From Alphaproteobacteria bacterium (GTDB lineage: Bacteria > Pseudomonadota > Alphaproteobacteria > RF32 > CAG-239), in NCBI GenBank assembly GCA_017528205.1, contig JAFXPE010000032.1, forward strand, positions 225,517 through 289,516: a stretch of 64,000 nucleotides of DNA, in the 5' to 3' direction. The position numbers and the translations under genes are program-made. The notes beneath the pieces were generated by a model. It did no database searches. It was not told the origin of the DNA and worked only from the letters and a program-made list of their open reading frames with translations. Positions 18,805 through 43,883 of this stretch are shown here, piece by piece (position 1 is the stretch's first letter; the number at the start of each line of letters is the position of its first letter).

Positions 18805-20409
18805 TCAAAACTTATACCACGGATTGCCGACGCGTCGCGACGCCTCTATCCGTTCTTCGTCTGATGAATATCGCACATTTCTAATAATAAAAGAGTTTGG
18901 TTCTCTATCCGTAAAAATTATGTTAATTTTTTTCGGTTCTACACCGTTATCGGCAAAAATCTTATACAGCATAGTCAGACGCTTTTGTTGTATGGCGCGT
19001 GAAGCCGAGCGGTCCACACGGATTTCAACCACAACGTTTTCGTGTTGCACGGCGTTGTCGGCAAAAGCGTGGAGCCAATCAAGAGTTTGGCCGGAAATTT
19101 CGGCGCGATTCGGTTGAAACGCCAATTTAAGCTCGGTCGGCATAATATCTTTGTCCTTATCGCCGAGCAGGCGTTGAAAAATTGATCCCCCGCGATTTTC
19201 CGACGATTTGTCTTTGCCTTTTTTTGCAGAAGAAGAAGTTATATCGGAAGCCTTATCTTTTATGCCGGCAAACCACGCGGAAATGCTGTCTTTGAAACTC
19301 TGCGACGTTTGTTCGTCTTCAAGCTCGTCTTCCTCCGGCTCTTCGTCAAAATCTTTTTCGTCATCGATACTCGGAATGGCGTCTGATGAGCCGGATTTAT
19401 TTTTGGTGGCTTTGGCCTTATCCGCATCTTCTTCAAGCGGCGGAAGTTTATTTTTGGCCCGCAATTCTTCTTCCAAACGCAGATTCTCTTCCGAAGTTGA
19501 AAATTGCGGTGTCAGATTTTCGTCGTTCAAAATATCTTCCGGAATCGGAATTAAGATATTTTGTTGCATCTTATAAGCCGTCTGGGTTTCAGCCTCGGCA
19601 TCCGGCAGGCTGACATCTTTTTCCAAAACATCGCTTTGTGTTGCCAAAGTGTTTTTGCTAATATGCTTATTGGCCACTTCGGCTACTGCCCACGGATTGT
19701 CGTCATCTTCCGCATTGGCGGATATTTCCGTGTTTTCTTCGCCGGTTTCGGATTTGTTTTTTTCTTCACTCGCGCTGAGCGGCTCGGTAATTTCTGCCTG
19801 ATTTTCCGCGCCCATATTGTAAATGCTGACATTTTTGGAAGCCAGAGCAATTTGTCCCTTATCTGCCTGATCCGAAACGGTAACCACTCCGTTTTCGGTT
19901 TTGTAATTGTGCTTAAGCGGAATTGCAAACACCGGCGCGGTTGAAGCATCGGCAATCTGCAGTTCTTCTTCTGTTGCGGTTTCTTCGTTTTCTTCCTGAA
20001 CAATCAACTCGGAAACGGAATTTTCTTCTGCCGTAACAACAGCAGTGTCCGCAACGCTGTTTTCCGTATTATCCGCCAAATTTTCCTCAACTTCGTCGGA
20101 AGCATACAAAATAGTGTCGCCGTTGATGGTGGAATTGTCGACCGTGTTCAAATCTTCAAAAGTATAGTGCTCGGCATTTTCGCTCAAAGGCGTGTCGGCG
20201 GCAGAAAGTTTTTTGAACTTCTCATAAATCGGATCGCTTTCTTCATTGGCCGCAAAAAGCTCTATATTTCTGGTTTCCATTCCGGCCAGTTGTGCTTCTT
20301 CCTGTTGCTCGTTCAGCGACATAACGATATACGCTTTCGAGGCGATAAACACTGCTGCTATCGAAAGAAAAAAACTACCCGCAAAATATTTCAATCCCAA
20401 TTTTGGCAT
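18805..20409 (-). CDS. Membrane-anchored acidic protein; first gene of the minus-strand pilus operon
   Basis: The likely start is MPKLGLKYFAGSFFLSIAAVFIASKAYIV (ATG 20407-20409, with RBS agga). It has a long D/E-rich middle and a conserved-looking C-terminal domain (…ENVVVEIRVDRSASRAIQQKRLTMLYKIFADNGVEPKKINIIF…). Confidence 0.4.
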   Translation of the reverse strand: MPKLGLKYFAGSFFLSIAAVFIASKAYIVMSLNEQQEEAQLAGMETRNIELFAANEESDPIYEKFKKLSAADTPLSENAEHYTFEDLNTVDNSTINGDTILYASDEVEENLADNTENSVADTAVVTAEENSVSELIVQEENEETATEEELQIADASTAPVFAIPLKHNYKTENGVVTVSDQADKGQIALASKNVSIYNMGAENQAEITEPLSASEEKNKSETGEENTEISANAEDDDNPWAVAEVANKHISKNTLATQSDVLEKDVSLPDAEAETQTAYKMQQNILIPIPEDILNDENLTPQFSTSEENLRLEEELRAKNKLPPLEEDADKAKATKNKSGSSDAIPSIDDEKDFDEEPEEDELEDEQTSQSFKDSISAWFAGIKDKASDITSSSAKKGKDKSSENRGGSIFQRLLGDKDKDIMPTELKLAFQPNRAEISGQTLDWLHAFADNAVQHENVVVEIRVDRSASRAIQQKRLTMLYKIFADNGVEPKKINIIFTDREPNSFIIRNVRYSSDEERIEASRRVGNPWYKF

Positions 20410-20671
20410 ATTAAAATCCTGTTGAATCAATGCAAACCGCCGTTTTTAGGCGACAGTTATCCCACTCTTTTGGTTGAAGATACAACGGATAATGTTAAAA
20501 TACCGTTAATAGGCGGAATAAAGTTGCACAACGCCTAAAAAAACACTTTGCAAAATGCAGCAAATATAATTTTTACGATTTATTTACCAAATTCATATAA
20601 TAATAACGTGTATTTTTATAATGCACATCGTGTGAACCGTCGAATAAATAGGAAAAAACGGACGATTGTTC

Positions 20672-20745
20672 GCTGTAACAAAAATGTAACAAAAATTTTG
20701 TACAAATTTGCTTTAAAGTGTGTTACTATAAAATTGTGATAGAAT
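20672..20745. promoter_or_regulatory. Divergent control region between the pilus and T4SS operons. It contains a repeated TGTAACAAAAAT motif plus inverted GTGTGTTAC, and -10-like TATAAAAT / TAGAAT.
   Basis: ctgtaacaaaaatgtaacaaaaatttt...gtgtgttacTATAAAATtgtgaTAGAATg. The same TGTAACAAAAATTTAACACACA element recurs at 25195 and 26070. Confidence 0.35.
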
Positions 20746-20762
20746 GAAAAGGGAGAAATAAC

Positions 20763-21116
20763 ATGAAATTCTTAAAAAATAATATCTGCTCAATAATGAT
20801 GATGGCACTTGTTTTTTCTGTTGCTATGATTGGTGATGCATCTGCTCAGGCAGGTCTTGGTCAGAGCGGTTCGGTGTTCCAAGTTGCCGGCAATAAATTG
20901 CTGCAATTGTTCAACGATTCCAAGATGATCCTGTTCATTATTGGTGGTTTCGGCTTGATTGCACTTGCCTTCCAAGCTATTTTCGGAAAAGTAAAATGGG
21001 CATGGTTTGCTGCTTTGGCCTTTGGTTTGGCAGTAATCGCCGCTGCCGGTGCCGTAATTAAATACGCTTCAAACACGGACGGTAATACCAGCAGCTTTAA
21101 CGATAGCTTGCACTAA
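20763..21116 (+). CDS. virB2: VirB2/TrbC-like T4SS pilin, paralogue 1
   Basis: Length is 117 aa. It has a signal peptide and two hydrophobic helices separated by a short loop (…KMILFIIGGFGLIALAFQAIFGKVKWAWFAALAFGLAVIAAAGAVIKY…). An RBS gggag precedes it. Confidence 0.6.
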   Translation: MKFLKNNICSIMMMALVFSVAMIGDASAQAGLGQSGSVFQVAGNKLLQLFNDSKMILFIIGGFGLIALAFQAIFGKVKWAWFAALAFGLAVIAAAGAVIKYASNTDGNTSSFNDSLH

Positions 21117-21157
21117 TCTTAAGTCAAATTATGCAACAAACGTTGCAAATACGTTTT

Positions 21158-21186
21158 CAATCTGCGGGAGAGAGTTTATGCTTTCT
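21158..21186 (+). terminator. Stem-loop (GGGAGAGAgtttatgcTTTCTCCC) between pilin paralogues 1 and 2; a possible partial terminator or attenuator
   Basis: It is an imperfect 8-bp stem with no clear T-run. Confidence 0.25.
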
Positions 21187-21212
21187 CCCTCAGGTTGAAG
21201 AAAGGAGGCCCG

Positions 21213-21557
21213 ATGTTGTACATTAAAATAAAGAACTTCTTATACAATAACCGCCGCGTGATTGCGTTGGTTCTTTCTTTATTTTTATACACAATGGACG
21301 CCTTTGCTGCCGACGCCGCCGGCGGTACTTTTACCGCTTTGATTACAGCAGCTAAGGCAATTTTCCAAGGTTTGCGGCAAATTATATATCCGGCAGCCAC
21401 CATCGGTATTGCCTCGGTTTGTATTGCCGGTATGTTCGGTAGTTTTAACTGGAAATGGTTTATTGCTATTTTAATCGGTGTGTTTATCATCGCTTATGCC
21501 GAATACACGGGGGCGCTCGCAACCGATAGCGTTGCAGATTTGGGTGATAACAATTAA
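21213..21557 (+). CDS. virB2: VirB2/TrbC-like T4SS pilin, paralogue 2
   Basis: MLYIKIK...RRVIALVLSLFLYTMDAFAADAAGG...ATIGIASVCIAGMFGSFNWKWFIAILIGVFIIAYAEY. The RBS is aggagg. An alternative start ATG at 21195 is possible. Confidence 0.55.
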   Translation: MLYIKIKNFLYNNRRVIALVLSLFLYTMDAFAADAAGGTFTALITAAKAIFQGLRQIIYPAATIGIASVCIAGMFGSFNWKWFIAILIGVFIIAYAEYTGALATDSVADLGDNN

Positions 21558-21571
21558 GAAGGAGGATGCTG

Positions 21572-21955
21572 ATGATGAAACGTTTTCCTTTATTTTTAGC
21601 AACTTTGCTTATTGCGCTGTTTGCAACCAGCGGAGCTTATGCTGACGGCGGCGGTGATATTTTCGGCAAATTGGCGGACAAAGCCTGGACCGTCGGTGCC
21701 GGTTTGCGCGAAGCCGGTTTTATTATTGCCGGATTGGGGTTGATTGTTTTTTCGTTTATGGCTATTTTCAATAAAATATCGTGGAAGACATTAGCCTATA
21801 TAATGATGAGCACTTTTATTTTAACGGCCACGGTGGCAGTAATAAACTATGTTTCCGACGGCAAGGCAAAAATTGATCAACCGGATTTTTCCGGACCTGG
21901 CCAAGTAAAAAGCGGAGGTACGGATAATGTGGTTCGCAATCCGGTTTCAAAATAA
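21572..21955 (+). CDS. virB2: VirB2/TrbC-like T4SS pilin, paralogue 3
   Basis: MMKRFPLFLATLLIALFATSGAYADGGG...AGFIIAGLGLIVFSFMAIFNKISWKTLAYIMMSTFILTATVAVINY. The RBS is aaggagg. Confidence 0.55.
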   Translation: MMKRFPLFLATLLIALFATSGAYADGGGDIFGKLADKAWTVGAGLREAGFIIAGLGLIVFSFMAIFNKISWKTLAYIMMSTFILTATVAVINYVSDGKAKIDQPDFSGPGQVKSGGTDNVVRNPVSK

Positions 21956-22036
21956 ACGGAGGCCGTATTAGAAACTAAAAAAAGAGCACGAATATTTTAC
22001 ACAAGCAGAGTTTAAACAGCAAAGAGAAAAGTGGGC

Positions 22037-22480
22037 ATGAGAATTATTCTTTTTTTATTTTTAATTTGTTTTTCAATCGCACCGGCATACGCATATAAAG
22101 AAGATAATCGTGCCGGAGAAGCACAGGCTACGGCAGGCGAGCAAAACACAAATTTATACCGCTTAAACAGCAAAGGTAAAATTGCCCTCAAAAAATTAAA
22201 ACAAGCATCGGAATATGTAGAACGTTCGAAAGCGGCCGGCAAAACGGTAAAGGCCTCGGCGATTGAAGATTTGTTGCTTTCCGGCAAAGCGGAAGACGAA
22301 AAAATGGAGATAAATCGCTTAACCGAAGCCGCGGCCAAACAAATCGAAAAGCCTTTGCAGTTAAAAGTTGCCGAAAATCATGCCGTTTATGAAACCATTG
22401 CGCAGATGCAGGCTTCGCAAATAAAAGATAAGCAAATTGCGAAAACCTTGGCTCAGCAACTCGGGAGAACAAAAAAATGA
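22037..22480 (+). CDS. Small secreted protein of unknown function; its stop overlaps the virB3 start (ATGA)
   Basis: The signal peptide is MRIILFLFLICFSIAPAYA. The remainder is hydrophilic and K/A/E-rich. Confidence 0.4.
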   Translation: MRIILFLFLICFSIAPAYAYKEDNRAGEAQATAGEQNTNLYRLNSKGKIALKKLKQASEYVERSKAAGKTVKASAIEDLLLSGKAEDEKMEINRLTEAAAKQIEKPLQLKVAENHAVYETIAQMQASQIKDKQIAKTLAQQLGRTKK

Positions 22481-22767
22481 GGGCGGAAATCTTAAAAGCC
22501 GTGGCTCAGCCGCCGAAAGTTTTGTGGGCACCGATGGTTCCGGCAATCATAAATTTGGGCATTCAGTTTCCGATGATGTTTATAGGGATAGGCATTGCCG
22601 ATGCCAACCCGCTGTTTTTTATCGTGTTGATTATAACGGCGCATGTAGCGTTGGTTTTTGCCGGCTTAAAAGAACCGCATTTATCCACCATGCTTCAGGC
22701 TTACGGACAAACCCGTATCATCACCACAAATTTGTACTCGGTCAGAGGGAGTAAATTCGAGCCATGA
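22477..22767 (+). CDS. virB3: VirB3-like inner-membrane protein
   Basis: Length is 96 aa. The sequence ...KVLWAPMVPAIINLGIQFPMMFIGIGIADANPLFFIVLIITAHVALVFAGLKEPHLSTMLQAYGQ... shows the VirB3 topology and the K(D/E)P motif. It lies directly upstream of, and overlaps, virB4. Confidence 0.6.
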   Translation: MRAEILKAVAQPPKVLWAPMVPAIINLGIQFPMMFIGIGIADANPLFFIVLIITAHVALVFAGLKEPHLSTMLQAYGQTRIITTNLYSVRGSKFEP

Positions 22768-25193
22768 ATGAATACGATTTTTTTAACTTGTTTGTGCGCG
22801 GACTGAATAACATAGAGGTTATTGTCGCTCTTATCGGTATTGCGTCGGCGGCTTCTTTTGCGGTTTTGTTGGCCACAAAATTCGGTAACTGGGTGTTGCC
22901 GCAACCGCGCGAATCTCGGGTGTCGGATTTTCTGCCTTTTCAAAAACTGATGTCCGACGGAGTAACAATTCAATGCCGCAACAATTCTTATGCACGCGTT
23001 TTCCGGCTTGAAGGCGTGGATTTATCTTCAGCCACCAATGAAAAAGTATATTCAATGATGGAAGCGCGAAAATCTTGGCTTGACGATATGGCCAATATGC
23101 AGGTAATTTGCCGCGTTATGACCACCCGCGACCATGACACTCTGGAAAGTGAAAAACGCGATTTCAACAATCCGCTTTTGGATACCATTTCGCAAATTTG
23201 GTTCAACAATATGAATCGGGTGTATGACAATAAACACTATATTATATTGTCGGTGGCCGACCGCAAAGATGCCTTAAAAGACCTTAATTATGCGTCACAA
23301 AGTTTGCTTTCAACCTTGGGCGAATATGGCGTCAGTCCGCTTTATGAAACCGATAACAGCAAGCCGGAAGACAGTCCGTTTTATTTGTTTGCGCATTTAT
23401 GCAGCCCGATTTCGCAACCAACGCCGAAAGTGCGTGATACGGAAGGCGCAAGACTTTGTGAATTGCTTACCGGCGACCATATTCACTTTACGCAAGAAGA
23501 AGGAATTATTCACTTCTTTTCCGGCGATAAAGATTTGTATGAAATAGCTTTGGGTATTCGCTCCAGCGGTGAGGCCATGGACGAAAGTATGATTTATTCG
23601 CTGAACGCGATAGATTGCGAATTGGTTTTGTTGCATAACATTCGCCCATTGTTCAGAGCAGAGGCTCGCGCTTTGTTGATGCAACAACAGCGTATGGCCA
23701 TGACCACCAGTTTGTCCGGCGGCGTGGTGGAACAATATTCCGAAGCATTGGCCGCAATCGATGATAGCGACAACGATTATCAATCATTGGCCGAATACGC
23801 TTTAACTATTATCGCCAAGGGACATTCCAAAGAGGAATTGGATTTTGCCGAATCGGAAGTACAACGTATTTGCCGTTCGTTTGGCGTAACTCCGGTGCGC
23901 GAAGGCTGGGTAGCACAGGCCGTGTTCTTTACACAATTCCCGACATATGACACTTATCCGCGGACATACCGCTATTTGTCGCGAGTTATTGCCATGGCCA
24001 TAACCATGGATAAGCCGGCGGAAGGTTTCGGCAAAAGTGACTGGGGCAAGGGCGCAATCACGGTATTCCGTACTATGTCCGGTTCTGCATATCGTTTTCA
24101 ATTCCATGTCAGCAGCGAAGAATCTGCGGTGGCCCACTGTTGCATTGTCGGTCCTACCGGACAAGGTAAAACAACTTTGCTGACGTTTTTGGCCGGACAA
24201 GCGATGCGCCACGGCGATTTGCGCGTGTTCTTCTTTGACCGCCACTTGGGTGCGCAAATATTTACTCGTGCCGTAAAAGGTGCGTATGTCGGCTTTGACG
24301 GCGATGAAAAGAACGTTTCGCTGAACCCGTTTGACTGTGCGAACACCTCGGAAAACAGAGCATTTTTACGGCGGTGGCTGAAGTCGATTACCATGGTTGA
24401 TGACGCTTTGGCCGATCGCGAAGTGGCGCGTGCCGTAACCACGGCATTTGACTACTTGCGACCGGAAGAACGTTTGCTTTCCAACTTATATAAGAGCTGT
24501 TTTTCGCCAACCGGAAATATGCGTCGTGAGCTTTATCGTTGGGTAAATCCGGATCAGTACGGCGCGATTTTTAACGGCCAAGACGATAGTTTGGATTTGA
24601 AGAGCCGTCGCTTTATGGCCTTTGACTTTACGCATATTTTTGAAGATGAAAACCTGGCTCCGGCCGTTATCAGTTACATCATGCACCGTATTCAATCCGA
24701 AACCGGCGAAACCGGCGTTCCGTCGCTGATTATGATTGATGAAACGGCGCCGATGTTGAAGCACCCGATGTTTAGAGATTATTTCATCATCGGTTTGCAA
24801 GAAGGTCGTAAAAAACGTCAGGCTTACCTCTGCGCTTTCCAACAGCCGAATATTGTTGATAAATTGGGCGTCGGCGAGGTTATTCGCGGTCAATGCCAAA
24901 CGGTTATTTTCTTCCGCAACCCGCAAGCCCAACCTGATGACTATGCTAACTGGAATTTGACGCAAAATGAATTGGACTTCATCTTCGGTAAGAGCTATCG
25001 TGATTTTCCGTATGCCATATTGCTGTCGCGTCCGGTGACCGGTGAATCGGTGATTTTGGACGTTGATTTGAGCGGTTTGGGCAAATATCTGCGTATTTAC
25101 AATTCCGGCCGTAAAAACGTGTTGTTGGTACAGCAACTGATAAAAGAATACGGAGAAGACGGTTTCTTAACCAAGTACCTTGATATAGCATAA
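22764..25193 (+). CDS. virB4: VirB4/TrbE/CagE-family T4SS ATPase
   Basis: Length is 809 aa. Walker A is GPTGQGKTT and Walker B is SLIMIDETAP. An N-terminal TM segment is present. Size and organisation are typical of VirB4. Confidence 0.9.
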   Translation: MNEYDFFNLFVRGLNNIEVIVALIGIASAASFAVLLATKFGNWVLPQPRESRVSDFLPFQKLMSDGVTIQCRNNSYARVFRLEGVDLSSATNEKVYSMMEARKSWLDDMANMQVICRVMTTRDHDTLESEKRDFNNPLLDTISQIWFNNMNRVYDNKHYIILSVADRKDALKDLNYASQSLLSTLGEYGVSPLYETDNSKPEDSPFYLFAHLCSPISQPTPKVRDTEGARLCELLTGDHIHFTQEEGIIHFFSGDKDLYEIALGIRSSGEAMDESMIYSLNAIDCELVLLHNIRPLFRAEARALLMQQQRMAMTTSLSGGVVEQYSEALAAIDDSDNDYQSLAEYALTIIAKGHSKEELDFAESEVQRICRSFGVTPVREGWVAQAVFFTQFPTYDTYPRTYRYLSRVIAMAITMDKPAEGFGKSDWGKGAITVFRTMSGSAYRFQFHVSSEESAVAHCCIVGPTGQGKTTLLTFLAGQAMRHGDLRVFFFDRHLGAQIFTRAVKGAYVGFDGDEKNVSLNPFDCANTSENRAFLRRWLKSITMVDDALADREVARAVTTAFDYLRPEERLLSNLYKSCFSPTGNMRRELYRWVNPDQYGAIFNGQDDSLDLKSRRFMAFDFTHIFEDENLAPAVISYIMHRIQSETGETGVPSLIMIDETAPMLKHPMFRDYFIIGLQEGRKKRQAYLCAFQQPNIVDKLGVGEVIRGQCQTVIFFRNPQAQPDDYANWNLTQNELDFIFGKSYRDFPYAILLSRPVTGESVILDVDLSGLGKYLRIYNSGRKNVLLVQQLIKEYGEDGFLTKYLDIA

Positions 25194-25194
25194 A

Positions 25195-25240
25195 AAATGT
25201 AACAAAAATTTAACACACAGCGCGCAATTAGTGTGTTACA
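25195..25240 (+). promoter_or_regulatory. Conserved 26-nt element AAAATGTAACAAAAATTTAACACACA followed by inverted TGTGTTACA, upstream of secreted-protein paralogue A
   Basis: It is identical to 26070-26095 and related to 20672-20697. Confidence 0.35.
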
Positions 25241-25272
25241 CTAAAACAAGGTAGGAATGTATGGAGGTTATC

Positions 25273-25959
25273 ATGACGGCGTTGAAAAAAAATCTGAAAT
25301 TCATAGCGGTTTTAGCCCTTATGATAACATTAAATTCCGGCCGCGCGGAAGCATTTATCAACTTTGATATTCAGCGCGTAGGCTCGGCGATTATGAACGG
25401 TTTGCAACAAGGTCTGCAAATCAAAAACGAAATAGACAGCAACATTGCAATGATTAAAGAGGCGCAATCCCGCGGTTACGCTCAGGCGGCGCAAGACTTG
25501 TTCGGCAAAGTCAAAAACGGAGATTTTGACCAATTCGGAGAAAATTTGAAAGGCTTACAAGATAGTGCCTTTGATGCAACGCACAGCGCCCAAGCGGTTG
25601 AGCAACGCAAGGCCAAAGAAGAGGAAGATCGCAAGGCCAAAATGGAAGAAATGCTTAGACAGGAAGAAGAGGCCAGAAAAGCTGCGGAAAGCAGTTCGGA
25701 TGCCGCACATTCCGAGGCCAAAGCCAAGGAACCTTTCTGGAAAAAAACTTTCAATTGGCTGAAAGATAGGCGTTCTGCCGCAGAGACCGGAGCCAATGCC
25801 TTCAACAGCGCCAAAAGCGGTGATGTGGCCGGCGCTTTGCGTAATGCCGGCGGAAGTGTCGGAACTGTGGTCGGCGGAGAAAACGGCCAAGGTATCGGCA
25901 TGCTGGGCAATATGGCAGGCGACGGCACAAATGCCGTTAACAACGGTCTGAGAAATTAA
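25273..25959 (+). CDS. Secreted helical protein in the VirB5 position (VirB5/TraC-like candidate), paralogue A
   Basis: The start is MTALKKNLKFIAVLALMITLNSGRAEAF, with RBS ggagg 7 nt upstream. Length is about 228 aa and the protein is predicted helical. The C-terminal tail is Gly/Asn-rich. Confidence 0.35.
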   Translation: MTALKKNLKFIAVLALMITLNSGRAEAFINFDIQRVGSAIMNGLQQGLQIKNEIDSNIAMIKEAQSRGYAQAAQDLFGKVKNGDFDQFGENLKGLQDSAFDATHSAQAVEQRKAKEEEDRKAKMEEMLRQEEEARKAAESSSDAAHSEAKAKEPFWKKTFNWLKDRRSAAETGANAFNSAKSGDVAGALRNAGGSVGTVVGGENGQGIGMLGNMAGDGTNAVNNGLRN

Positions 25960-26069
25960 TCAATTCGACATCTGGGTAAAAAAGTAAATGTCTGGTCCTA
26001 AACAGATATAAATTTTTGACAACAAAAAAGTGACAAAAAATCCCCAAAATTAAGTACCTTAATGCAATT

Positions 26070-26130
26070 AAAATGTAACAAAAATTTAACACACACCGTG
26101 TAAAAATTATGCTATGGTAAAATTAGCGAG
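26070..26130 (+). promoter_or_regulatory. Second copy of the 26-nt TGTAACA element, plus a -10-like TATGCT / TAAAAT, upstream of paralogue B
   Basis: aaaatgtaacaaaaatttaacacacaccgtgtaaaaattatgctatggtaaaatt. Confidence 0.3.
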
Positions 26131-26159
26131 GAATTGTATGGAGGTTATCATGATGGCTA

Positions 26160-26875
26160 CAAGGAGAAAAATTGGAATTATATCGGTTTTCGCCATTGTG
26201 ATAGCATTGGCGTCCGGTCGGGCAAATGCCTTTCCGCTGGTGTGGAGCGATGTGGAACGCCTCGGAACGGAAGTGCTGAACGGCATACAACAAGTTTCAC
26301 AAATCAAAAACGAAATCGACAGTAATATGGCACTGATTAAAGAAGCACAAGAGCGCGGCTATGCGGCCGCGGCCAACGATTTAATCGGTAAAATTCAAAA
26401 CGGAGATTTTGACCGTTTCGGCAACCAACTGGGCGGTTTGGGCGACACCGCATTTAATGCAACGCACGGTGCAAAAGCGGTAGAGGAACGCAATGCCAAA
26501 AGAGAAGAAGAAGCCAAAAAAGCGGCGGAAAATGCCGCCAACGGCCAAAACAACGAAGTGTTTGGAAAAAAGATATACAATTGGCTGAAAGACAATCGCA
26601 CGACAACGAATGCCGGATTTAACACCTTAAACAATATTCAAAGCGGCGACGTGGCAAATGCGTTGCGCAATGCTACCGGCGGAGCCGAAAGCGCTCTCGG
26701 TGACAATGTTCAAGGCCTTGGAACCATAGGCAGTATGGGCGGTGCCGCAACGGATATTATCAACAGAAGCGGCAATGTCAGCGATGCTGTTGCCAACACG
26801 GCAAATAACAGAGAATTAAAAGGCGCCATCGATTCAATTCCGGCAAAAGATAATTCCGGCGGTGGAACCAACTGA
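26160..26875 (+). CDS. Secreted protein, paralogue B of 25273..25959
   Basis: MMATRRKIGIISVFAIVIALASGRANAF... It is collinear with paralogue A (…LNGIQQVSQIKNEIDSNMALIKEAQERGYAAAANDL.GKIQNGDFD.FG…). The RBS is ggagg. Confidence 0.35.
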
Positions 26876-26923
26876 GAATAACAACAAAACAGGATGCTTA
26901 TAATTTTTAATAGAAAGGAATGT

Positions 26924-28447
26924 GGCATGAGAAGTATCAATAAATTACAAATAATGACATTGGTTTGTCTTATAACATTATTTATAAGCACACCGGCGTT
27001 TTGTGATGCCGGAGCCACATCCTCGTCTGCAAATGACGAAATTCAAACAAAGGTAACGACAAACAAAAACGGCACCGAAACAACGCAAACCTCAAGCGGA
27101 TATTCCACCGGCCAAGTCGGCGGTTCAGGCGGCAGCAGTAAAAGTGCTTCAACTCCGGCAACGACCGGCGGCAGCGGAAGTTCGAGCGGCACCGGCACCA
27201 GCTCCGGTACCGGCACCGGTTCAAGCTCCGATGCAAATTCCGGCTCATCTAATGGCGATAATAAAGATGCTGAGGATGTGAATTATACCGGTGTTTACAA
27301 AGGACATCAGGTTTTGCCGGATTTGATGATGATATACTGCAAGGTGAATGCCGAAGATATTATCGCTGACGTAACCAAGTTGGAAGCCTGCATTAAAAAA
27401 TATGTAACGGCCATTAACAACAGCAACGCCTCGGTTAAGTCGGAAGGTATTCACGACTTTAACACCCTGCGTTATAAAACTTTGGTTGACGTTATGGGTA
27501 CGGCGGTTACCAAACTGGGCAGCGTTGCTGAATTTGAAGAAGATATGAATAAACACGGCGAAGCCGCGGAAAAAATGAAAACAAATTTTGAAACCGAAGG
27601 TGTGCTTATCGCTACTCAGGGATTTTCAACCAAAGTAATGAACAGCATTCGTGAATTATATGCCGATATTTTGAAATATCAGGCCATTGACGGTATGGTA
27701 AACATTGATCCTTCCGCAATTTTGGACGAGGACGAACAGGTAGATGAAAACGGCAATAAGGTTGAAAACGGCGGTAACACCAGCGCCGACCAAACTTCGG
27801 AAAAGGCTCAAACCTCAGCACTTGCCGGCGATAGCGAAGGCGGCGATGAAGAAGTCGGCGGAGATGGTGAAAACGAGGCCATAGACGGTGGCACGTTGCC
27901 GGAAGTGACTGTACCTGGTTCGTCAAAGTTGGATAAATACGAAAATATGTCGCCGGAAGAATTTGCCAATAATAAAGATGAAGTTGCCCAACTCAGAAAA
28001 GATTTGACCGATGCTATGAACGATCCGGATGCTTCGGATACGGAAATTGCCAACGCGCAAAAGGCTTTGGACAGATTGGGAGAAATTGAGGCGCAAAAAG
28101 CCAACTGGGGCGGCGCCGATGAATTTCAGGAGGTTCCAGAAAGCGACAGTCAGAGCAGTAGCCAAGGCGATAGCAATACCCAAAGCAACAGCGAAGACGC
28201 AACGCGCTCACAACATGACAGCGATTTGTCTTCGGCTCAAAATCTTTCGCAAGGCAACTATGTTAACGCGCTGAATGCGTATCGTGGAATTTTGGATAAT
28301 GCTGATTCTACGGAAGAACAGAAGAAACAGGCTCAATATTATATAGATGTGTTAAACGAGGCGGCGCCACAGGTGTTTAAAGATAAATCATGCTCGCAAA
28401 TGAAGCGCGAACTCGGCTTAAGCATCAGTTGCAATGATTGGAAATAG
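26924..28447 (+). CDS. Secreted acidic protein with an N-terminal Ser/Gly/Thr-rich region
   Basis: The signal is MRSINKLQIMTLVCLITLFISTPAFC. It is followed by ...SSGTGTSSGTGTGSSS... and a D/E-rich remainder. Function is unknown. Confidence 0.4.
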   Translation, partial: GMRSINKLQIMTLVCLITLFISTPAFCDAGATSSSANDEIQTKVTTNKNGTETTQTSSGYSTGQVGGSGGSSKSASTPATTGGSGSSSGTGTSSGTGTGSSSDANSGSSNGDNKDAEDVNYTGVYKGHQVLPDLMMIYCKVNAEDIIADVTKLEACIKKYVTAINNSNASVKSEGIHDFNTLRYKTLVDVMGTAVTKLGSVAEFEEDMNKHGEAAEKMKTNFETEGVLIATQGFSTKVMNSIRELYADILKYQAIDGMVNIDPSAILDEDEQVDENGNKVENGGNTSADQTSEKAQTSALAGDSEGGDEEVGGDGENEAIDGGTLPEVTVPGSSKLDKYENMSPEEFANNKDEVAQLRKDLTDAMNDPDASDTEIANAQKALDRLGEIEAQKANWGGADEFQEVPESDSQSSSQGDSNTQSNSEDATRSQHDSDLSSAQNLSQGNYVNALNAYRGILDNADSTEEQKKQAQYYIDVLNEAAPQVFKDKSCSQMKRELGLSISCNDWK

Positions 28448-35821: not shown

Positions 35822-36574
35822 GTGGCACAGTTAGGCGATGGAACAAAAAAGATATTGTTAGCGGGACAATCACCGGTAAAACAGGCAGCATATCAGCCTC
35901 ATTTTATCAGCGACGCCAAACAAGATAGCTATTCGGGCAAGGAAGTTTATTTCCGTTGGCTTTCGAGGTTGGTTGTGTTATGTGCGATTGTTTCGCTGAC
36001 ATTCTTTTTGTGTTCGACTATGGTTATCTTCCGCTTGGCTCCGGAGATTGTGGTTGAACCGCTTTTAATTATCAATCAGAGTGATTCCGAAAGCATGGCG
36101 CGTTATGAGCCGATAACTGAGCGTATGCCGTCACTTCGCCAGTTGACCGAAATGTTTATCAAACAATATATAATCATGCGCAACACGGTCATCAATGACG
36201 CTCAGGAAATGCGCACCCGCTGGGGACCGGGCGGCATTGTTCATTATATGTCGGCTCCGGATGTTTATGCTGATTTTGTGGGACAAAATTCGCAATCGAT
36301 AAATAAAATGTTTGACAATGATTATTCCAGCGAAACGCGCATAGACGAGATTGGCAAAGAAAGTGAAACCACACCGGCGTGGACGGTTAAATTTACGGTG
36401 TTCAACCTGTCAAAAAAACGCAGTTCTGAGGGTTCGCTGACCTTAAAAACCAAGCGCTACAAGGTTTCCATAACACCGCGTTTTTATCAACAAAGAAGAA
36501 TATTCCGGCCGCGTTTGATAAATCCGCTGGGGTTTACGGTGGTTAAATATAACCAGAGCGAAATAAGTGAATAG
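35822..36574 (+). CDS. virB8: VirB8-like bitopic T4SS protein, copy 1
   Basis: It begins with a GTG start. It has a cytoplasmic N-terminus, a single TM (LSRLVVLCAIVSLTFFLCSTMVIF) and a periplasmic NTF2-like domain ending ...RPRLINPLGFTVVKYNQ, matching the conserved VirB8 NP(L/F)GF.V..Y motif. Confidence 0.6.
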   Translation: MAQLGDGTKKILLAGQSPVKQAAYQPHFISDAKQDSYSGKEVYFRWLSRLVVLCAIVSLTFFLCSTMVIFRLAPEIVVEPLLIINQSDSESMARYEPITERMPSLRQLTEMFIKQYIIMRNTVINDAQEMRTRWGPGGIVHYMSAPDVYADFVGQNSQSINKMFDNDYSSETRIDEIGKESETTPAWTVKFTVFNLSKKRSSEGSLTLKTKRYKVSITPRFYQQRRIFRPRLINPLGFTVVKYNQSEISE

Positions 36575-36611
36575 TTTGTTTAATCTATTTTAATCTTTTT
36601 ATTTTAATATA

Positions 36612-36637
36612 ATACGCAAAGGAGTATCTTTGCGTAT
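36612..36637 (+). terminator. Perfect 10-bp stem-loop (ATACGCAAAGgagtatCTTTGCGTAT) inside the operon between virB8-1 and the lipoprotein gene
   Basis: It is seen directly in the sequence. It is followed by tgttgt rather than a clean U-run. It is a candidate attenuator or RNA-processing site. Confidence 0.35.
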
Positions 36638-36722
36638 TGTTGTAATGCGTGAAATGCTGATATTTCTTGGTGTTGAGACGATTCTCAATATTTAGGGTTT
36701 AAACAGAAAGAGAGATGAAAAA

Positions 36723-36911
36723 ATGTATAAAAAATTTCTAATTCTGGCGATATTGCTGATTTTATCGGCTTGCAGTCTGTTCGGTTCGTATTATGAACCG
36801 GAAGCGGTCGGTATCGGTAAAGACGTGAATGAGCTTAAGCTTTCGCCGTGTGCTTGCATGCAGGTTGAAGTGATTAAAAATGTTCCCGATTGGTTTTGGG
36901 AAACAATTTAA
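36723..36911 (+). CDS. Small lipoprotein (VirB7-like candidate)
   Basis: Length is 62 aa. The signal peptide MYKKFLILAILLILSAC has a lipobox LSAC. The RBS is aagagag. Confidence 0.45.
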   Translation: MYKKFLILAILLILSACSLFGSYYEPEAVGIGKDVNELKLSPCACMQVEVIKNVPDWFWETI

Positions 36912-36927
36912 ACAAGGATAGTTTCAA

Positions 36928-37674
36928 ATGGCGGATCAGTTAGGTACAAACAACACACAGCAACGTCTTCTCGCCTCGGGGCAAAAGCGTCAGGCGGTGC
37001 ACGCTGCCACCACGCATAACATAAATCGCAGTGAAGACAGCTTTGTTGTTAATGCCAGCGAAAAGAGATATTTGTGGACCGCCCGCGCGTTTGCGGTGGT
37101 TACGGCGATAAGCATCTGTTGCAATTTGGTGTTGATATTGACAATTGCCAACATTTTGCCTCTGTATCGTGTGGAGCCGTATTTGCTGACCTTGTCCAAC
37201 AAAGAAGAGCAAGTGTATCGCATTGAACCGTACAGCCGTGATATGGAAGCCAAAAAGTCTATTACGGAAACCTTTATTCGCCAGTATTTGCTTTTAAGAA
37301 CAACCTTGTTGCCGGATATCGAAGAGATGGAATCGCGCTGGCAAGAAGGCGGCGATTTGCAAGAAATGTCTTCACCGATGGTGTATCAGGACTTTATCAA
37401 GAACACCGGCGTAAAGTTGATGCAACGCATGAAACAAGACGGCTTAACCAGCAATGTGAAGATAATTACGGTAAACGAAATAGAAGAAGCGGTTTGGCAG
37501 GTGGAATATAGTGTTGATTATTATTTACCGTCATCATATGAGCCGAAAACGCTCAGATACAGAGCAAGTATGCGAATTCAATATATTCAGCAACGTGTTC
37601 AATTTAAAGAAAGATTGAAAAATCCGGTCGGATTTAAGGTTGTTTCATACAACGTCAAACAAATAAAAGACTAA
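36928..37674 (+). CDS. virB8: VirB8-like bitopic T4SS protein, copy 2
   Basis: It is collinear with copy 1 (FIRQYLLLRTTLLPDIEEMESRWQEGGDLQEMSSPMVYQDFI versus FIKQYIIMRNTVINDAQEMRTRWGPGGIVHYMSAPDVYADFV). The C-terminus reads ...NPVGFKVVSYNVKQ. Confidence 0.6.
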   Translation: MADQLGTNNTQQRLLASGQKRQAVHAATTHNINRSEDSFVVNASEKRYLWTARAFAVVTAISICCNLVLILTIANILPLYRVEPYLLTLSNKEEQVYRIEPYSRDMEAKKSITETFIRQYLLLRTTLLPDIEEMESRWQEGGDLQEMSSPMVYQDFIKNTGVKLMQRMKQDGLTSNVKIITVNEIEEAVWQVEYSVDYYLPSSYEPKTLRYRASMRIQYIQQRVQFKERLKNPVGFKVVSYNVKQIKD

Positions 37675-39309: not shown

Positions 39310-42300
39310 ATGAGTAAAGAGCCGTTAACACATTCGGACAGATATGTTCGCAAAACCAATAAAGTGATTCTGATTATCGGAATTGTTACTTTATGTGTGT
39401 TTTTGTTCGGCTTAATGCTGCTCGGAACGGAAGCTCCGGAAGAGCAGCAACACTATGAATTTGAGCATTCCATAGAAGAAGAAAGTCAGGTCGGTATAAG
39501 TGCCGAGAGCAATACTTCGGCCGAAATAGAATTTGAAAACACCGAAGATACGGAGCCACCGATAACGCTTTCGCCGGCGGAGCTGAATATGGGGCAGGTT
39601 GTTTTGGGCAACGAGGCCAGCAACGTTTTAACCATCGGCACCAATGGCAAACGCGAAATTAAAATACTTTCGGTTGAGCTTGAAGATGCTCCGTTTGACG
39701 GTTTTCATTATGAAACCAACTGCAAAGACAGAGAATTGCGCGGAAAATTGACCTGTTTGGTGACGATGAACTGGTTGCCGACGGTTGCCGCCAATGTTCA
39801 AAGCAATTTCAAAATTGTGTGGCACGAAACCAACGTTTCGGATAACAGTGCCAAGCATAGCGAAGTAACGGTTCGCGGTAGCGCCGTAACCAAGGATAAC
39901 TGCACGGTTTGCGATACCGGCGCGGTGAGCGGCACGACGGAAAACGGTGTGGACGGCGCAAAAGGCAAAATGCGCTATGCCATCGGGCCGGACGGCAAGG
40001 TTATCGGCTGGATAGATGAAAACGGCGTGGTTCATGATTTTGACGGCAATGAAATCGGCCGCGTCAACGCCGACGGTATGGTTGTCGATAAAGATGGCAA
40101 TATAATAGGTGTTGCGGCCAACGGACGTGTGATTGTCGATGAAAACGGCAACGTTATCGGTTATGTAGATGAAAACGGTGTGGCCTATGATTTGGAAGGC
40201 AATGTTATCGGCACGGTTTTGCCGGATGGTACGGTCGTTGATGCCAATGGTAATGTTATCGGCAAAGCGGTGGAATACGGCTATGTTTATGATGACGACG
40301 GTAATATTATCGGCAGAGTTTTGCCGGACGGCACGGTTGTCGATATGGACGGCAAAGTCATCGGGCATGTGGATAAAAACGGGAATGTCGTAGATGAAAA
40401 CGGCAATATTATCGGTCATGTGGCCAAAGCCGGTGAAGTTATATTAGATGATAACGGCGACGTGGTCGGTGTGGTTATGCCAAACGGCAATGTAGTTAAC
40501 GAAGACGGAGAAATTGTCGGAAAAATGAATGCCGACGGTTCGGTTGATGATGTTGAAATCATCGGTAAACGCGGCGCGGCGGCGCAAATGGTTTATGACG
40601 AAAACGGCAATATTATCGGCTATGTCGATGAAAACGGCGTGGTGCGCGATTTTAACGGCAATGTTATCGGCCACGTTGATGAAAACGGCAATGTTATTGA
40701 CGCCAACGGCAAAGTTATCGGTCATGTGAGTGACGAATGGCGCGATTTGGCATTGGATGAAAATGGTAATGTTATCGGTTATATTGATGAAAACGGTTTG
40801 GTACACGATAACGACGGTAATATTATCGGGTATGTTGATGCCAATGGTAATATAATCGGTAATAAACCGAAAATCACCACTTCGGGCAAAGCCAGTAAAC
40901 ATGCTTTGGCGTTGGATAAAGACGGCAACGTTATCGGTTGGATAGATGAAAACGGTGTGGTACGCGATTTTGACGGCAATATTATCGGTCATGTTGACGA
41001 AAACGGCAACATAGTTGATGCCAACGGCAATATCATCGGTCATCGCGGAAAAGCCGCTAATTTGGCCTTTGATAAAAACGGAAAATTAATCGGTATCATT
41101 GATGAAAACGGTGTGGTACGCGACTTTGACGGCAATGTTATCGGCCATGTTGATGAAAACGGCAACATAGTTGACGCCAACGGCAATATCATCGGTCATC
41201 GCGGAGATCCGGCAACGGTTTTGGCTATGGATGAAAACGGCAATGTTATCGGCTGGATAGATGAAAACGGCGTGGTGCGTGATTTTGATGGTAATATTAT
41301 CGGTCATGTTGACGAAAACGGCAACATAGTTGATGCCAACGGCAATATCATCGGTCATCGCGGAAAACCGGCCAAATTGGCATTGGATAAAGATGGTAAT
41401 GTCATCGGCTATATCGATGAAAACGGCGTGGTGCGAGATTTTAACGGCAATGTTATCGGCCATGTTGATGAAAACGGCAACATAGTGGATGCCAACGGCA
41501 ATATCATCGGTCGACAGGGTGGTGCCGCCAATTTGATATTTGATGAAAACGGCAAGTTAATAGGTTATGTTGATCCAAACGGTGTGGCTCGTGATTTTGA
41601 TGGTAATGTCATAGGCTATGTTGATGAAAACGGTAATGTGGTTCGCAAGGATTATTCCGGCGAAATCATCGGCAAGGTAGGCAATCGCGCAGATTTGGCC
41701 GTCGATGAAAACGGCAATGTTATCGGTTGGATAGATGAAAACGGCGTAGTGCGTGACTTTAACGGCAATATTATCGGCCACGTTGATGAAAACGGCAATA
41801 TTATAGATGCCAACGGCAATATCATCGGTCATCGCGGCGATTCCGCACTATTGGCTCTGGACGAAGACGGTAATGTCATCGGTTACATTGATAAAAACGG
41901 CATTGTGCGCAACAGCAGCAATCAAATTATCGGCATTGCCGACGCCAACGGCAATATTCGTACCTTCGGTCGCCGTATTATCGGCAGAACTTTGGATAAA
42001 AACCTGTTACCGATAACGCCGGAAGGAAGATTGTTGGGCGTGTTAAACAATCGCGGCGAAATTATCAATCAGCAGAAAGTTGTCGGCAAAATGCGTCCGG
42101 ACGGCATTGTGACGGATATTTCCGGCGCCAAAGTTTTAGCCAAAGGCGTGCGGCAGGGATATATCGTAAACTGGGGCTGTGATTTCAGCTTAAAATTAGA
42201 CCGAGACGGAGTTGTCCGTCGTGACGGCGCCGAAACCGGCTATCGGGTATACGCCGACGGCACGGTTTGGACACCGGAAGGCAAGTTTGCCGGTCAGGCC

Positions 42301-43881: not shown

Positions 43882-43883
43882 GT

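What the first reader, a model, noticed from the sequence alone, without database searches (positions are those of the whole stretch)
20431..26130. Shared TGTAACAAAAAT(T/G)TAACA(CACA) element upstream of the virB2 operon and of both VirB5-like paralogues
An identical 26-nt sequence, AAAATGTAACAAAAATTTAACACACA, occurs at 25195-25220 and 26070-26095, each about 60-80 nt before the start codon. A close variant with a tandem TGTAACAAAAATGTAACAAAAAT lies at 20674-20697, in the 332-bp divergent region between the pilus and T4SS operons. Each copy is followed by an inverted GTGTGTTAC or TGTGTTACA. The resulting TGTAACA...TGTTACA half-site arrangement is typical of a dimeric transcription-factor operator. 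This suggests co-regulation of the pilus operon, the T4SS pilin genes and two internal T4SS genes by one unseen regulator. It also suggests internal promoters inside the long T4SS operon.
Basis: seen in the sequence. Interest (0 to 1): 0.5.

Follow-up and report, generated by a model that had tools for sequence, protein, structure and literature searches.

The report
Conserved regulatory box at T4SS pilin promoters
The repeated TGTAACA motif is a real, strongly conserved DNA control element placed just upstream of three promoters that drive the pilus-type subunits of a chromosomal type IV secretion system in uncultured gut/rumen Alphaproteobacteria; it most likely binds an unidentified activator, which is useful to know but is an ordinary kind of bacterial gene control.

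Summary
An 18-nt box, TGTAACAAAAA-W-K-T-M-A-Y-A, occurs exactly three times in 64 kb (20674, 25198, 26074), and chance expects none.

It is not just a duplicated 5' UTR. In 80 related species loci, 58 of 60 with a readable virB2 upstream region carry one box there. In 1.04 Mb, the only other strong hits sit after virB4 in the window's own clade.

In that clade every box lies 21-22 nt, or 32 nt (one helical turn more), upstream of an extended -10 (TGnTAnnnT, 17/17). It is missing at the third copy, and its defining bases vary between orthologues.

Both halves of the box follow the same degenerate consensus (KTMAYA) at an 11-bp period. This is the layout of OmpR/PhoB-type response-regulator sites, and the 20674 copy fits WalR/VicR TGTWAHA-N4-TGTWAHA exactly.

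Internal promoters are supported by comparison. Co-regulation of the type IVb pilus operon is not, because the box tracks virB2 and not the pilus gene. No regulator gene lies nearby.

Verdict: a real cis-regulatory element, a new member of a known kind, of modest interest.

The parts
20674..20691 (+). Box copy 1: TGTAACAAAAATGTAACA. Two perfect 7-bp direct repeats at an 11-bp period, 32 nt upstream of the -10.
   Evidence: (29.3 bits). Orthologous boxes lie upstream of virB2a in 58/60 species loci.
20685..20702 (+). Overlapping weaker box, TGTAACAAAAATTTTGTA. It is the second repeat plus a degenerate third repeat and ends 21 nt upstream of the -10.
   Evidence: 17.3 bits. The 21-nt spacer matches the other promoters of the clade.
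20719..20729 (+). Extended -10 of the virB2a promoter, TGTGTTACTAT.
   Evidence: It is homologous to TGTGTTATTAT / TGTGATATTAT in L001-L007.
20735..20745 (+). Second extended -10-like element, TGTGATAGAAT, 17 nt before the ATG. It may be a tandem promoter.
   Evidence: The equivalent TTGTATATAAT block is conserved in the wider family. Its function was not tested.
20763..21116 (+). virB2a, the first of three VirB2/TrbC-type pilin paralogues.
   Evidence: (PF04956).
25194..25219 (+). The 26-nt identical block. It contains box copy 2 (25198-25215, TGTAACAAAAATTTAACA) and starts 1 nt after the virB4 stop codon.
   Evidence: 29.8 bits. Orthologous boxes follow virB4 in L001-L008 only.
25232..25242 (+). 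Extended -10 TGTGTTACACT. The hexamer TACACT lies 21 nt after the box.
25254..25276 (+). Conserved ribosome-binding block GGAATGTATGGAGGTTATCATGA, with the likely start codon at 25273.
   Evidence: apart from one inserted T, this block is identical to the one before the paralogue. GGAGG(Y)TATYATG recurs across the family.
25273..25959 (+). First VirB5-position gene (228 aa, signal peptide, predicted all-helical). It has no family hit, so 'VirB5-like' rests on position only.
   Evidence: Searches found no hit. The structure model is unusable (pLDDT 41).
26052..26063 (+). Remnant of the virB4 3' end, AAGTACCTTAAT (compare 25173-25184, AAGTACCTTGAT). It shows that promoter plus gene were duplicated in tandem.
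26070..26095 (+). The 26-nt identical block, containing box copy 3 (26074-26091).
   Evidence: 29.8 bits.
26110..26123 (+). Two overlapping extended -10 candidates: TGCTATGGT (hexamer 21 nt after the box) and TGGTAAAAT (26 nt after the box). There is no inverted TGTTAC here.
26150..26875 (+). Second VirB5-position paralogue (241 aa), 45% identical to the first.

Best explanation
The element is an 18-bp protein-binding box made of two direct repeats of one degenerate half-site (K-T-M-A-Y-A, usually TGTAACA) at an 11-bp period, so both halves lie on one face of the DNA.

In the window and its seven or eight closest species, the box sits at about -51 to -34, or one helical turn further upstream, of sigma-70-type promoters. 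These promoters have a strong extended -10 (TRTGnTAnnnT) and no recognisable -35.

I infer that a head-to-tail dimer of a sequence-specific regulator binds the box and recruits RNA polymerase. The site layout is that of winged-helix OmpR/PhoB-family response regulators. A repressor role is less likely but possible.

The three promoters drive the genes whose products are needed in excess of the channel parts: the first pilin gene (virB2a) and the two VirB5-position paralogues. The latter two promoters are internal to the T4SS gene row.

The box is ancestral to the whole T4SS lineage. In most species a single copy sits in the opposite orientation at about -83 to -100 of the virB2a promoter, with an IHF-like site between box and promoter. 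In the window's clade it was inverted, brought next to the core promoter, and a copy arose after virB4. In this genome that copy was then duplicated together with the gene.

Shown: sequence, conservation, geometry. Inferred: protein binding, direction of regulation, regulator family.
For: 1. Non-random and unique. There are 3 boxes in 64 kb and none expected.

2. Deep conservation.
- 58/60 species loci (VirB4 75-93% identical; the matching VirB2a only 42-67%) have a box of at least 16 bits within 170 nt of the virB2a ATG.
- In 1.04 Mb the only other such hits are the eight virB4-downstream copies of L001-L008, one weak hit, and one locus (L048) where the box sits in the virB2 upstream region but the VirB2a match is partial.
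- The box is an island of about 2 bits per position within variable flanks.

3. Fixed geometry. The spacer from box end to the TAnnnT hexamer is 21 nt (9 promoters), 22 nt (2) or 32 nt (5). WIN-B5b has 21 or 26. TG at -15/-14 is present in 17/17. The 11-nt step keeps the helical phase.

4. Selection after duplication. The two paralogue upstreams are 26/26 identical in the box and, apart from one inserted T, identical in the RBS block. Many positions of the spacer between them differ, and the proteins are 45% identical.

5. Both halves draw on the same variants: distal GTAACA/GTCACA/GTCATA/TTAACA and proximal TTCACA/TTCATA/GTAACA/TTAACA/GTCACA/GTCATA. This fits two identical protomers bound in tandem.

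6. The 20674 copy fits the footprinted WalR/VicR consensus TGTWAHA-N4-TGTWAHA exactly, and the layout parallels the Pho box. Such sites work on either strand (PMC4168254).

7. In the wider family, 46/53 boxes have WA[T/A]CAA-N4-TTR (IHF-like) 18-19 nt to the promoter side. This fits a distal activator site brought to the promoter by a DNA bend.

8. OmpR-family control of a virB promoter has precedent: BvrR at Brucella virB1, alongside several other regulators (PMC9491525).
Against: - No binding protein was identified. No Pfam transcription-factor domain was found among the window ORFs tested. No conserved non-structural neighbour gene exists.
- No transcription start sites are known, so promoter positions are inferred from consensus and conservation only. 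The generic promoter scan is no better than shuffles.
- The box can also be read as TGTNA-N8-TNACA, an imperfect inverted repeat, so a symmetric dimer is not excluded.
- The A-tracts phased at 11 bp could act partly through DNA curvature or alpha-CTD contact.
- A site overlapping the -35 region could equally serve a repressor.
- The regulon test failed.
Confidence: 0.6

Rival explanations
1. A symmetric dimeric transcription factor binds an operator made of TGTAACA and a downstream inverted TGTTACA, bracketing the -35/-10 region.
For: An 8-bp perfect inverted repeat TAACACAC/GTGTGTTA, 12 nt apart, lies at 25211-25238. GTAACA/TGTTAC lies at 20686/20721. Similar short complementarity is seen in L001 and L006.
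Against: - The arm is absent at the 26074 copy.
- In orthologues the downstream arm varies exactly where a half-site should not (-13 is T, A or G; -10 is T, C or A). It is constant where an extended -10 should be (TG, T-12, A-11, T-7).
- The arm spacing takes two values (21 vs 32 nt).
- In more than 50 species the box has no such partner at all.
- Folding is not above shuffles.
- The complementarity follows automatically from TRTGnTA resembling the reverse complement of TKTAACA.
Confidence: 0.08
2. The element needs no specific factor. The phased A-tracts form an UP element or curved DNA that contacts the RNA polymerase alpha-CTD and boosts strong pilin promoters.
For: - In the window clade the box spans about -55 to -34.
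- A4-5 tracts recur every 11 bp (AAAA-TGTAACA-AAAA-TTTAACA).
- In other clades the same position after virB4 holds GTTTTTRAAAAAGT, which is also A/T-rich.
Against: - The non-A/T positions (G2, C6, C15/C17) are as conserved as the A-tract.
- In 53 species the box is at about -83 to -100 and inverted, outside UP-element range.
- The exact 18-mer is maintained across species whose VirB2a is only about 45-60% identical.
Confidence: 0.12
3. The box is a site for a global alphaproteobacterial response regulator, namely CtrA (TTAA-N7-TTAAC) or PhoB (Pho box). The T4SS surface genes would then be tied to the cell cycle or to phosphate supply.
For: - Window copies read GTAA-N7-TTAAC, 8 of 9 CtrA positions.
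- L002/L007 proximal halves TGTCACA/TGTCATA, and L012-L026 distal halves TGTCAC/TGTCAT, are Pho-type half-sites.
- The period and the A/T-rich 4-bp spacer match the Pho box quoted in PMC4168254.
- From my own knowledge, CtrA controls pilin genes in Caulobacter, and phosphate starvation induces virG in Agrobacterium.
Against: - The family consensus GTAAC-N6-TTCAC departs from the CtrA consensus at positions that are invariant. These look like preferred bases rather than tolerated mismatches.
- The proximal half ATTCACA lacks the Pho TGT.
- The box lies one helical turn further from the -10 than a Pho box does.
- No further copies occur in 1.04 Mb of flanks or in the 64-kb window, which includes housekeeping genes.
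Confidence: 0.1
4. TGTAAC/TTTAAC is the -35 element of an alternative (ECF-type) sigma factor rather than a regulator site.
For: ECF -35 elements contain AAC (for example TGTAAC for B. subtilis SigX, from my own knowledge). The proximal repeat overlaps the -40 to -34 region.
Against: - The spacer to the -10 hexamer is 21-22 nt, too long.
- The -10 is a classical extended sigma-70 type with no CGT motif.
- Two phased copies are conserved, not one.
- In most species the box is inverted and about 70 nt from the -10.
Confidence: 0.05
5. The element has no function. The identity is only a by-product of recent duplication or gene conversion between the two paralogue upstream regions.
For: The 26074 copy did arise by tandem duplication of virB4-3'end + intergenic + gene; the remnant is at 26052-26063.
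Against: - The spacer and the coding DNA have diverged (45% protein identity) while the box is 26/26 identical.
- The same box stands before virB2a, which is not a paralogue.
- It occupies orthologous sites in 58/60 species.
Confidence: 0.02

Closest known systems
WalR/VicR box (TGTWAH-N5-TGTWAH, refined to TGTWAHA-N4-TGTWAHA) of Firmicutes OmpR-family regulators (PMC4168254)
   Same: Two hexamer/heptamer direct repeats at an 11-bp period with an A after each repeat. The 20674 copy fits the consensus exactly. These sites are found on either strand and often overlap the -35.
   Different: The host is an alphaproteobacterium, which has no WalRK. The 25198 and 26074 copies and the family consensus (ATTCACA proximal half) deviate from it. 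No binding data exist.
Pho box / PhoB (CTGTCATA-W-A-W-CTGTCACA), as quoted in PMC4168254
   Same: 7-bp direct repeats with a 4-bp A/T-rich spacer. The site replaces a missing -35. Several orthologous boxes contain TGTCAC/TGTCAT halves.
   Different: The box sits about 11 bp further from the -10 than a Pho box. The family-wide proximal half lacks TGT. No pst/pho context is present.
Brucella virB promoter (BvrR, IHF and other regulators; PMC9491525) and the Agrobacterium VirG vir box (my own knowledge)
   Same: An OmpR-family regulator acts on the promoter of the first T4SS gene in an alphaproteobacterium. An IHF-type site lies upstream. ChIP signals inside the virB operon led those authors to suggest additional start sites.
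   Different: The motif sequences differ. Here the system is a chromosomal, lineage-wide T4SS of uncultured gut/rumen bacteria with several VirB2, VirB5-position and VirB8 paralogues. The same box is reused at internal promoters.
Extended -10 ('TRTGn' / -16 region) promoters
   Same: TRTGnTAnnnT is present at all 17 promoters of the clade, and the -35 hexamers are poor.
   Different: Nothing unusual. This part is textbook.
NifA-type UAS (TGT-N10-ACA) + IHF + sigma-54 promoter (my own knowledge)
   Same: The family arrangement is TGT-N12-ACA at about -90, with an IHF-like site between it and the promoter.
   Different: The spacing is N12, not N10. No GG-N10-GC (-24/-12) element is present; the core looks sigma-70-like (CTGGMA-N17/18-TAnnnT).

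Membership tests
OmpR/PhoB-type response-regulator binding site (tandem direct repeats) | Two similar 6-7-bp half-sites in direct orientation, 10-11 bp centre to centre | tested here: met
   TGTAACA-N4-TGTAACA (20674) and TGTAACA-N4-TTTAACA (25198, 26074). Both halves sample the same variants (KTMAYA) across about 75 boxes.
OmpR/PhoB-type response-regulator binding site (tandem direct repeats) | Phase-locked position next to or overlapping the -35 of a promoter with a weak -35 | tested here: met
   The spacer to the -10 is 21/22 nt or 32 nt in 16 of 17 promoters, and 21 or 26 nt at the 17th. The -35 hexamers are poor (for example CACACA). Promoters are predicted, not mapped.
OmpR/PhoB-type response-regulator binding site (tandem direct repeats) | A cognate winged-helix regulator binds the site | not testable with these tools
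   There is no such gene in the window or in 80 flanks (tblastn with PhoB and CtrA; Pfam). Complete genomes could not be searched.
WalR/VicR regulon site | Match to TGTWAHA-N4-TGTWAHA in a Firmicutes genome encoding WalRK | tested here: not met
   The sequence match is exact at 20674 and has one mismatch at 25198 and 26074. The host, however, is an alphaproteobacterial MAG lineage. This is a resemblance in mechanism only.
CtrA box | TTAA-N7-TTAA(C) | tested here: inconclusive
   The window copies match 8/9 (GTAA-N7-TTAAC) and the family consensus 7/9 (GTAA-N7-TTCAC). The deviating bases are invariant.
   The arm is missing at 26074. Orthologues keep only the extended -10 features. Two different arm spacings occur.
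UP element | A/T-rich element at -40 to -60, with little constraint on specific G/C positions | tested here: not met
   The position fits only in the window clade. In 53 species the box is at about -83 to -100 and inverted. The G/C positions are invariant.
Sigma-54 promoter with upstream activator site | GG-N10-GC (-24/-12) core promoter | tested here: not met
   CTGG is conserved, but the GC lies at N7-N8 or is absent. This was read by eye from the listing.
Extended -10 sigma-70 promoter | TG at -15/-14 plus TAnnnT | tested here: met
   17/17 promoters of the window clade. 56/77 virB4-downstream intergenics against 12.1 in shuffles.
Known structured RNA (Rfam) | Covariance-model match | tested here: not met
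   The only hit is a sub-threshold miRNA match at 21153-21202, E = 0.13.

The most novel reading that the evidence does not exclude
The box is the operator of a still-unknown, dedicated master regulator of a chromosomally fixed T4SS shared by a whole lineage of uncultured gut/rumen Alphaproteobacteria. The window's clade would then show a regulon being rewired: the site was inverted, moved from a distal IHF-assisted position (about -90) to the core promoter, and then copied in front of the VirB5-position genes. This would put pilin and pilus-tip genes under one direct input.
Probability: 0.35. Interest if true: 0.45.

Novelty: new member of a known kind. Interest (0 to 1): 0.33.

Why it matters
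- **A handle on regulation.** These Alphaproteobacteria are common in human, ruminant and other animal guts but are uncultured, and nothing is known about when they deploy their T4SS. A sharply defined 18-bp box gives a concrete probe for DAP-seq or EMSA, for PWM scans of complete MAGs, and for reading metatranscriptomes. Any of these could identify the regulator and the signal.
- **Gene dosage.** The result shows how this T4SS likely achieves excess production of surface subunits, through internal promoters before the VirB5-position genes.
- **Promoter evolution.** It offers a clean comparative example of a binding site being inverted, relocated and duplicated.
- **Limits.** Mechanistically it is conventional bacterial promoter control.

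Tried and rejected
- **Plasmid search.** Megablast of 20000-27000 against plasmids found no match. The locus is chromosomal in uncultured Alphaproteobacteria.
- **Generic promoter/terminator scan.** Results were no better than shuffles and uninformative.
- **Rfam.** Nothing relevant.
- **Hairpin or cruciform reading of the inverted repeats.** Folding is not above shuffles.
- **Sigma-54 reading of the conserved CTGG...TGC.** The spacing is wrong.
- **ECF -35 reading.** The spacing is wrong, and the box is distal in most species.
- **IHF consensus in the window's own divergent region.** No match there. The IHF-like site is a feature of the other clades only.
- **Search for the regulator.**
  - Pfam on most predicted ORFs of the window (about 47 ORFs).
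  - NCBIfam on 10 unannotated ORFs.
  - Clustering of 1059 ORFs from 80 loci.
  - Only structural T4SS/pilus genes are conserved neighbours.
- **Regulon search by motif scan of metagenomes**. The scan stopped at 120 matches, and 114 of them lack any T4SS gene and come from contigs with G+C of 0.21-0.64. Several look like Firmicutes promoters with phased TGTAAC repeats. Inconclusive.
- **VirB5 identity of the two paralogues.** No Pfam, NCBIfam or PDB sequence hit. The AlphaFold model from a 2-sequence alignment has pLDDT 41 and is unusable, so 'VirB5-like' remains positional.
- **The virB4-downstream element of other clades (GTTTTTRAAAAAGTMTTY) as a degenerate box.** The similarity is too weak to claim (PWM below 13 bits).
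Full report
**1. The observation**

The 26-nt string AAAATGTAACAAAAATTTAACACACA occurs twice, at 25194-25219 and 26070-26095. No shuffle produces a match even with three mismatches allowed.

TGTAACAAAAAT occurs four times exactly, all on the + strand (20674, 20685, 25198, 26074), against 0.07 expected. GTGTGTTAC follows only two of the three sites, at 20718 and 25231. The third site has nothing like it. The main observation stands; the claim that each copy has an inverted partner does not.

**2. Context**

- The minus strand carries type IVb pilus genes: PilO-like, a secretin, TcpQ, and a 534-541-aa protein ending at about 20409/20430.
- The plus strand carries a VirB-type T4SS:
  - three VirB2 paralogues;
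  - a 149-aa protein, VirB3 and VirB4 (22764-25193);
  - two paralogous secreted proteins of 228 and 241 aa, 45% identical;
  - several large unannotated proteins;
  - two VirB8 paralogues, a CagX/VirB9-like protein, giant beta-flower/RHS and TrbI-fusion proteins, and VirB11.
- YidC, RNase P protein and an EngB-type GTPase follow, so the system is chromosomal.
- VirB4 homologues of 75-93% identity come from MAGs labelled Alphaproteobacteria from rumen, human, chicken and other guts.

I fetched 80 species-representative loci around VirB4. They served for phylogenetic footprinting.

**3. The box is ancient and belongs to virB2**

I built a PWM from 16 boxes and scanned the window and all 80 loci.
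- The window has only the three known sites, plus an overlapping weaker one at 20685.
- Of the 60 loci with at least 170 nt upstream of the first virB2, 58 carry one box of at least 16 bits there.
- In 1.04 Mb, both strands, the only other such hits are:
  - eight copies just after virB4 in L001-L008;
  - one weak hit;
  - one locus (L048) where the box is in the virB2 upstream region but the VirB2a match is partial.
- The box is an island of about 2 bits per position within variable flanks.

In 53 loci (L009-L079) the box lies on the opposite strand, with consensus TGTAACAAAAAATTCA(C/T)A.
- It ends 109-119 or 127-137 nt before the virB2 ATG, depending on the clade, with one locus at 145 nt.
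- Its distance to the pilus gene ranges from 154 to 1880 nt. In many loci no full-length copy of that gene was found in the fetched flank.
- The box therefore belongs to the virB2 promoter region, not to the pilus operon.
- In 46 of these 53 loci an IHF-like WA[T/A]CAA-N4-TTR lies 18-19 nt to the promoter side. Ten of them match the strict IHF consensus.
- Next comes a conserved sigma-70-like core, CTGGMA-N17/18-TAnnnT.

**4. In the window's clade the box sits on the core promoter**

In WIN and L001-L008 the box is on the coding strand, and the roughly 60 nt between box and core promoter are gone. A second box follows the virB4 stop in this clade only.

For all 17 promoters of the clade, the distance from box end to a TAnnnT hexamer falls into a few values:
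- 21 nt in 9 promoters, 22 nt in 2, and 32 nt in 5;
- at 26074 it is 21 nt (TGC-TATGGT) or 26 nt (TGG-TAAAAT);
- TG at -15/-14 is present in 17/17.

The 11-nt step between 21 and 32 keeps the box on the same face of the helix. At 20674 there are three phased repeats, so both spacings are satisfied.

The -35 hexamers are poor (for example CACACA). Predicted transcription starts are near 20736, 25249 and 26125-26130, leaving leaders of about 20-27 nt with a GGAGG ribosome-binding site.

**5. What the 'inverted half-site' is**

GTGTGTTAC(TAT/ACT) is TRTGn + TAnnnT, an extended -10. The orthologues read TGTGTTATTAT, TGTGATATTAT, TATGTTATACT, TATGTTACAAT, TATGATATAAT and TATGGTAAGAT.
- The TG, T-12, A-11 and T-7 never change.
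- The bases that would make it TGTTACA do change: -13 is T, A or G, and -10 is C, T or A.
- The complementarity with TKTAACA is a by-product of the two consensus sequences.
- DNA folding of the three regions is unremarkable.

**6. Duplication history**

The region upstream of the second paralogue contains AAGTACCTTAAT (26052-26063). This is a remnant of the virB4 3' end (25173-25184). A block of virB4 end, intergenic region and gene was therefore duplicated in tandem.

Since then the proteins have diverged to 45% identity, and many positions of the spacer between box and RBS now differ. The 26-nt box block stayed 26/26 identical. The 23-24-nt RBS block stayed identical apart from one inserted T. 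This points to purifying selection, or conversion limited to functional blocks.

**7. Internal promoters in general**

In 77 loci the short intergenic after virB4 (median 69 nt up to the GGAG) contains TGnTAnnnT in 56 cases. Composition-matched shuffles give 12.1 on average and at most 21. An internal promoter before the VirB5-position gene therefore appears to be a family-wide trait. Use of the box there is specific to the window's clade. In other clades the corresponding position holds GTTTTTRAAAAAGTMTTY.

**8. Mechanism**

Both halves of the box draw on the same set of variants (K-T-M-A-Y-A) at an 11-bp period. This is what two identical protomers bound head-to-tail would produce.

The layout (7-bp repeat, 4-bp A/T spacer, position abutting a missing -35, use on either strand) is that of OmpR/PhoB-family sites.
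- The 20674 copy fits the footprinted WalR/VicR consensus TGTWAHA-N4-TGTWAHA exactly.
- That paper itself notes the similarity of this consensus to the Pho box (PMC4168254).
- OmpR-family control of a virB promoter, together with other regulators, is documented in Brucella (PMC9491525).

I therefore favour an activator of that type. It would act from about -51 to -34 in the window's clade, and from about -90 with an IHF-type bend in the rest of the family.

This part is inference. No regulator was found:
- no transcription-factor domain in the window ORFs tested;
- no PhoB- or CtrA-like gene in the window or the 80 flanks;
- no conserved non-structural neighbour gene.

**9. Rivals**

- The symmetric-operator, UP-element, ECF -35 and sigma-54/UAS readings each fail a specific test. 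Details are in the membership table.
- CtrA or PhoB as the actual binder cannot be excluded. The invariant departures from their consensus sequences argue against it. So does the absence of other sites in the sequence available.
- The imperfect inverted reading TGTNA-N8-TNACA remains possible.

**10. What failed**

Only six of them are T4SS loci, and in all six the box is on the opposite strand about 113-135 nt upstream of virB2. The remainder lack T4SS genes and come from contigs with G+C of 0.21-0.64. The regulon question is open.
- The VirB5 assignment of the two paralogues could not be verified.

**11. Verdict**

This is a real, selected cis-regulatory box with a well-defined promoter geometry. 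It is a new instance of a familiar kind of element, found in an unstudied lineage. Interest is modest. Its main value is as a handle for finding the regulator of this T4SS, and as an example of a binding site being relocated and duplicated.

Noticed in passing
window 20763-21955, 35822-37674, 39310-48071: The T4SS has an unusual make-up: three VirB2 paralogues, two VirB8 paralogues, a 1523-aa beta-flower/RHS-repeat protein, and a 1395-aa protein fusing beta-flower repeats to a TrbI/VirB10 domain. It is flanked by housekeeping genes (YidC, RNase P protein, EngB-like GTPase), so it is chromosomal. VirB4 homologues, and in most loci virB2/virB3, recur in 80 species loci.
   Followed up: partly
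window 21132-21147 and about 21166-21190: Two stem-loops lie directly after the virB2a stop: TGCAACAAACGTTGCA and GGGAGAGAG...CTTTCTCCC. They may act as an attenuator or mRNA stabiliser that sets the pilin-to-downstream gene ratio.
   Followed up: no
window 20412-20510: A roughly 100-nt non-coding block next to the pilus-gene start is almost invariant in the window clade (CCCACTCTTTTGGTTGAAGATACAAC, GTTAAAATACnGTTAAT, and a GC hairpin at about 20439-20456). It is probably the pilus operon leader or promoter.
   Followed up: no
window 20570-20640; L009-L079 about 40 nt from the box: A second conserved block, TTTTTACGATTTATTTAC (reverse complement GGTAAATAAATCGTAAAAA), matches the family-wide AAAAGGTAAATAATTTGATAAC that sits beside the box in other clades. 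Its function is unknown.
   Followed up: partly
L009-L079, 18-19 nt on the promoter side of the box: An IHF-like site, WA[T/A]CAA-N4-TTR, occurs in 46/53 loci, and 10 of them match the strict consensus. It is absent from the window's own divergent region.
   Followed up: yes
L009-L036 and L066, immediately after the virB4 stop: A conserved GTTTTTRAAAAAGTMTTY lies at about -50 to -33 of the internal promoter, where the window clade has the box. It may be another regulator's site or an UP element.
   Followed up: partly
window 26016-26041: Box-like degenerate repeats, TTGACAACAAAAAAGTGACAAAAAAT, lie 45 nt upstream of box copy 3 (80% direct repeat). They may be extra weak sites.
   Followed up: no
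window 36614-36636 and 36724-36912: A hairpin, ACGCAAAGGAGTATCTTTGCGT, is followed by a small lipoprotein-like ORF (MYKKFLILAILLILSAC...), probably a VirB7-type gene, in the 353-nt gap between the two VirB8 paralogues.
   Followed up: no
window 3224-4327: An ankyrin-repeat protein is encoded near the pilus/T4SS cluster. It is a possible secreted effector.
   Followed up: no
L115, L151, L193 (metagenome hits): Unrelated contigs, judged by eye to look Firmicutes-like, carry phased TGTAAC repeats (for example TTGTAACACTTTTGTAACAAAAATTTAACA) upstream of TTGAC...TGnTATAAT promoters. The same repeat layout is therefore used elsewhere, probably by WalR-like regulators.
   Followed up: no
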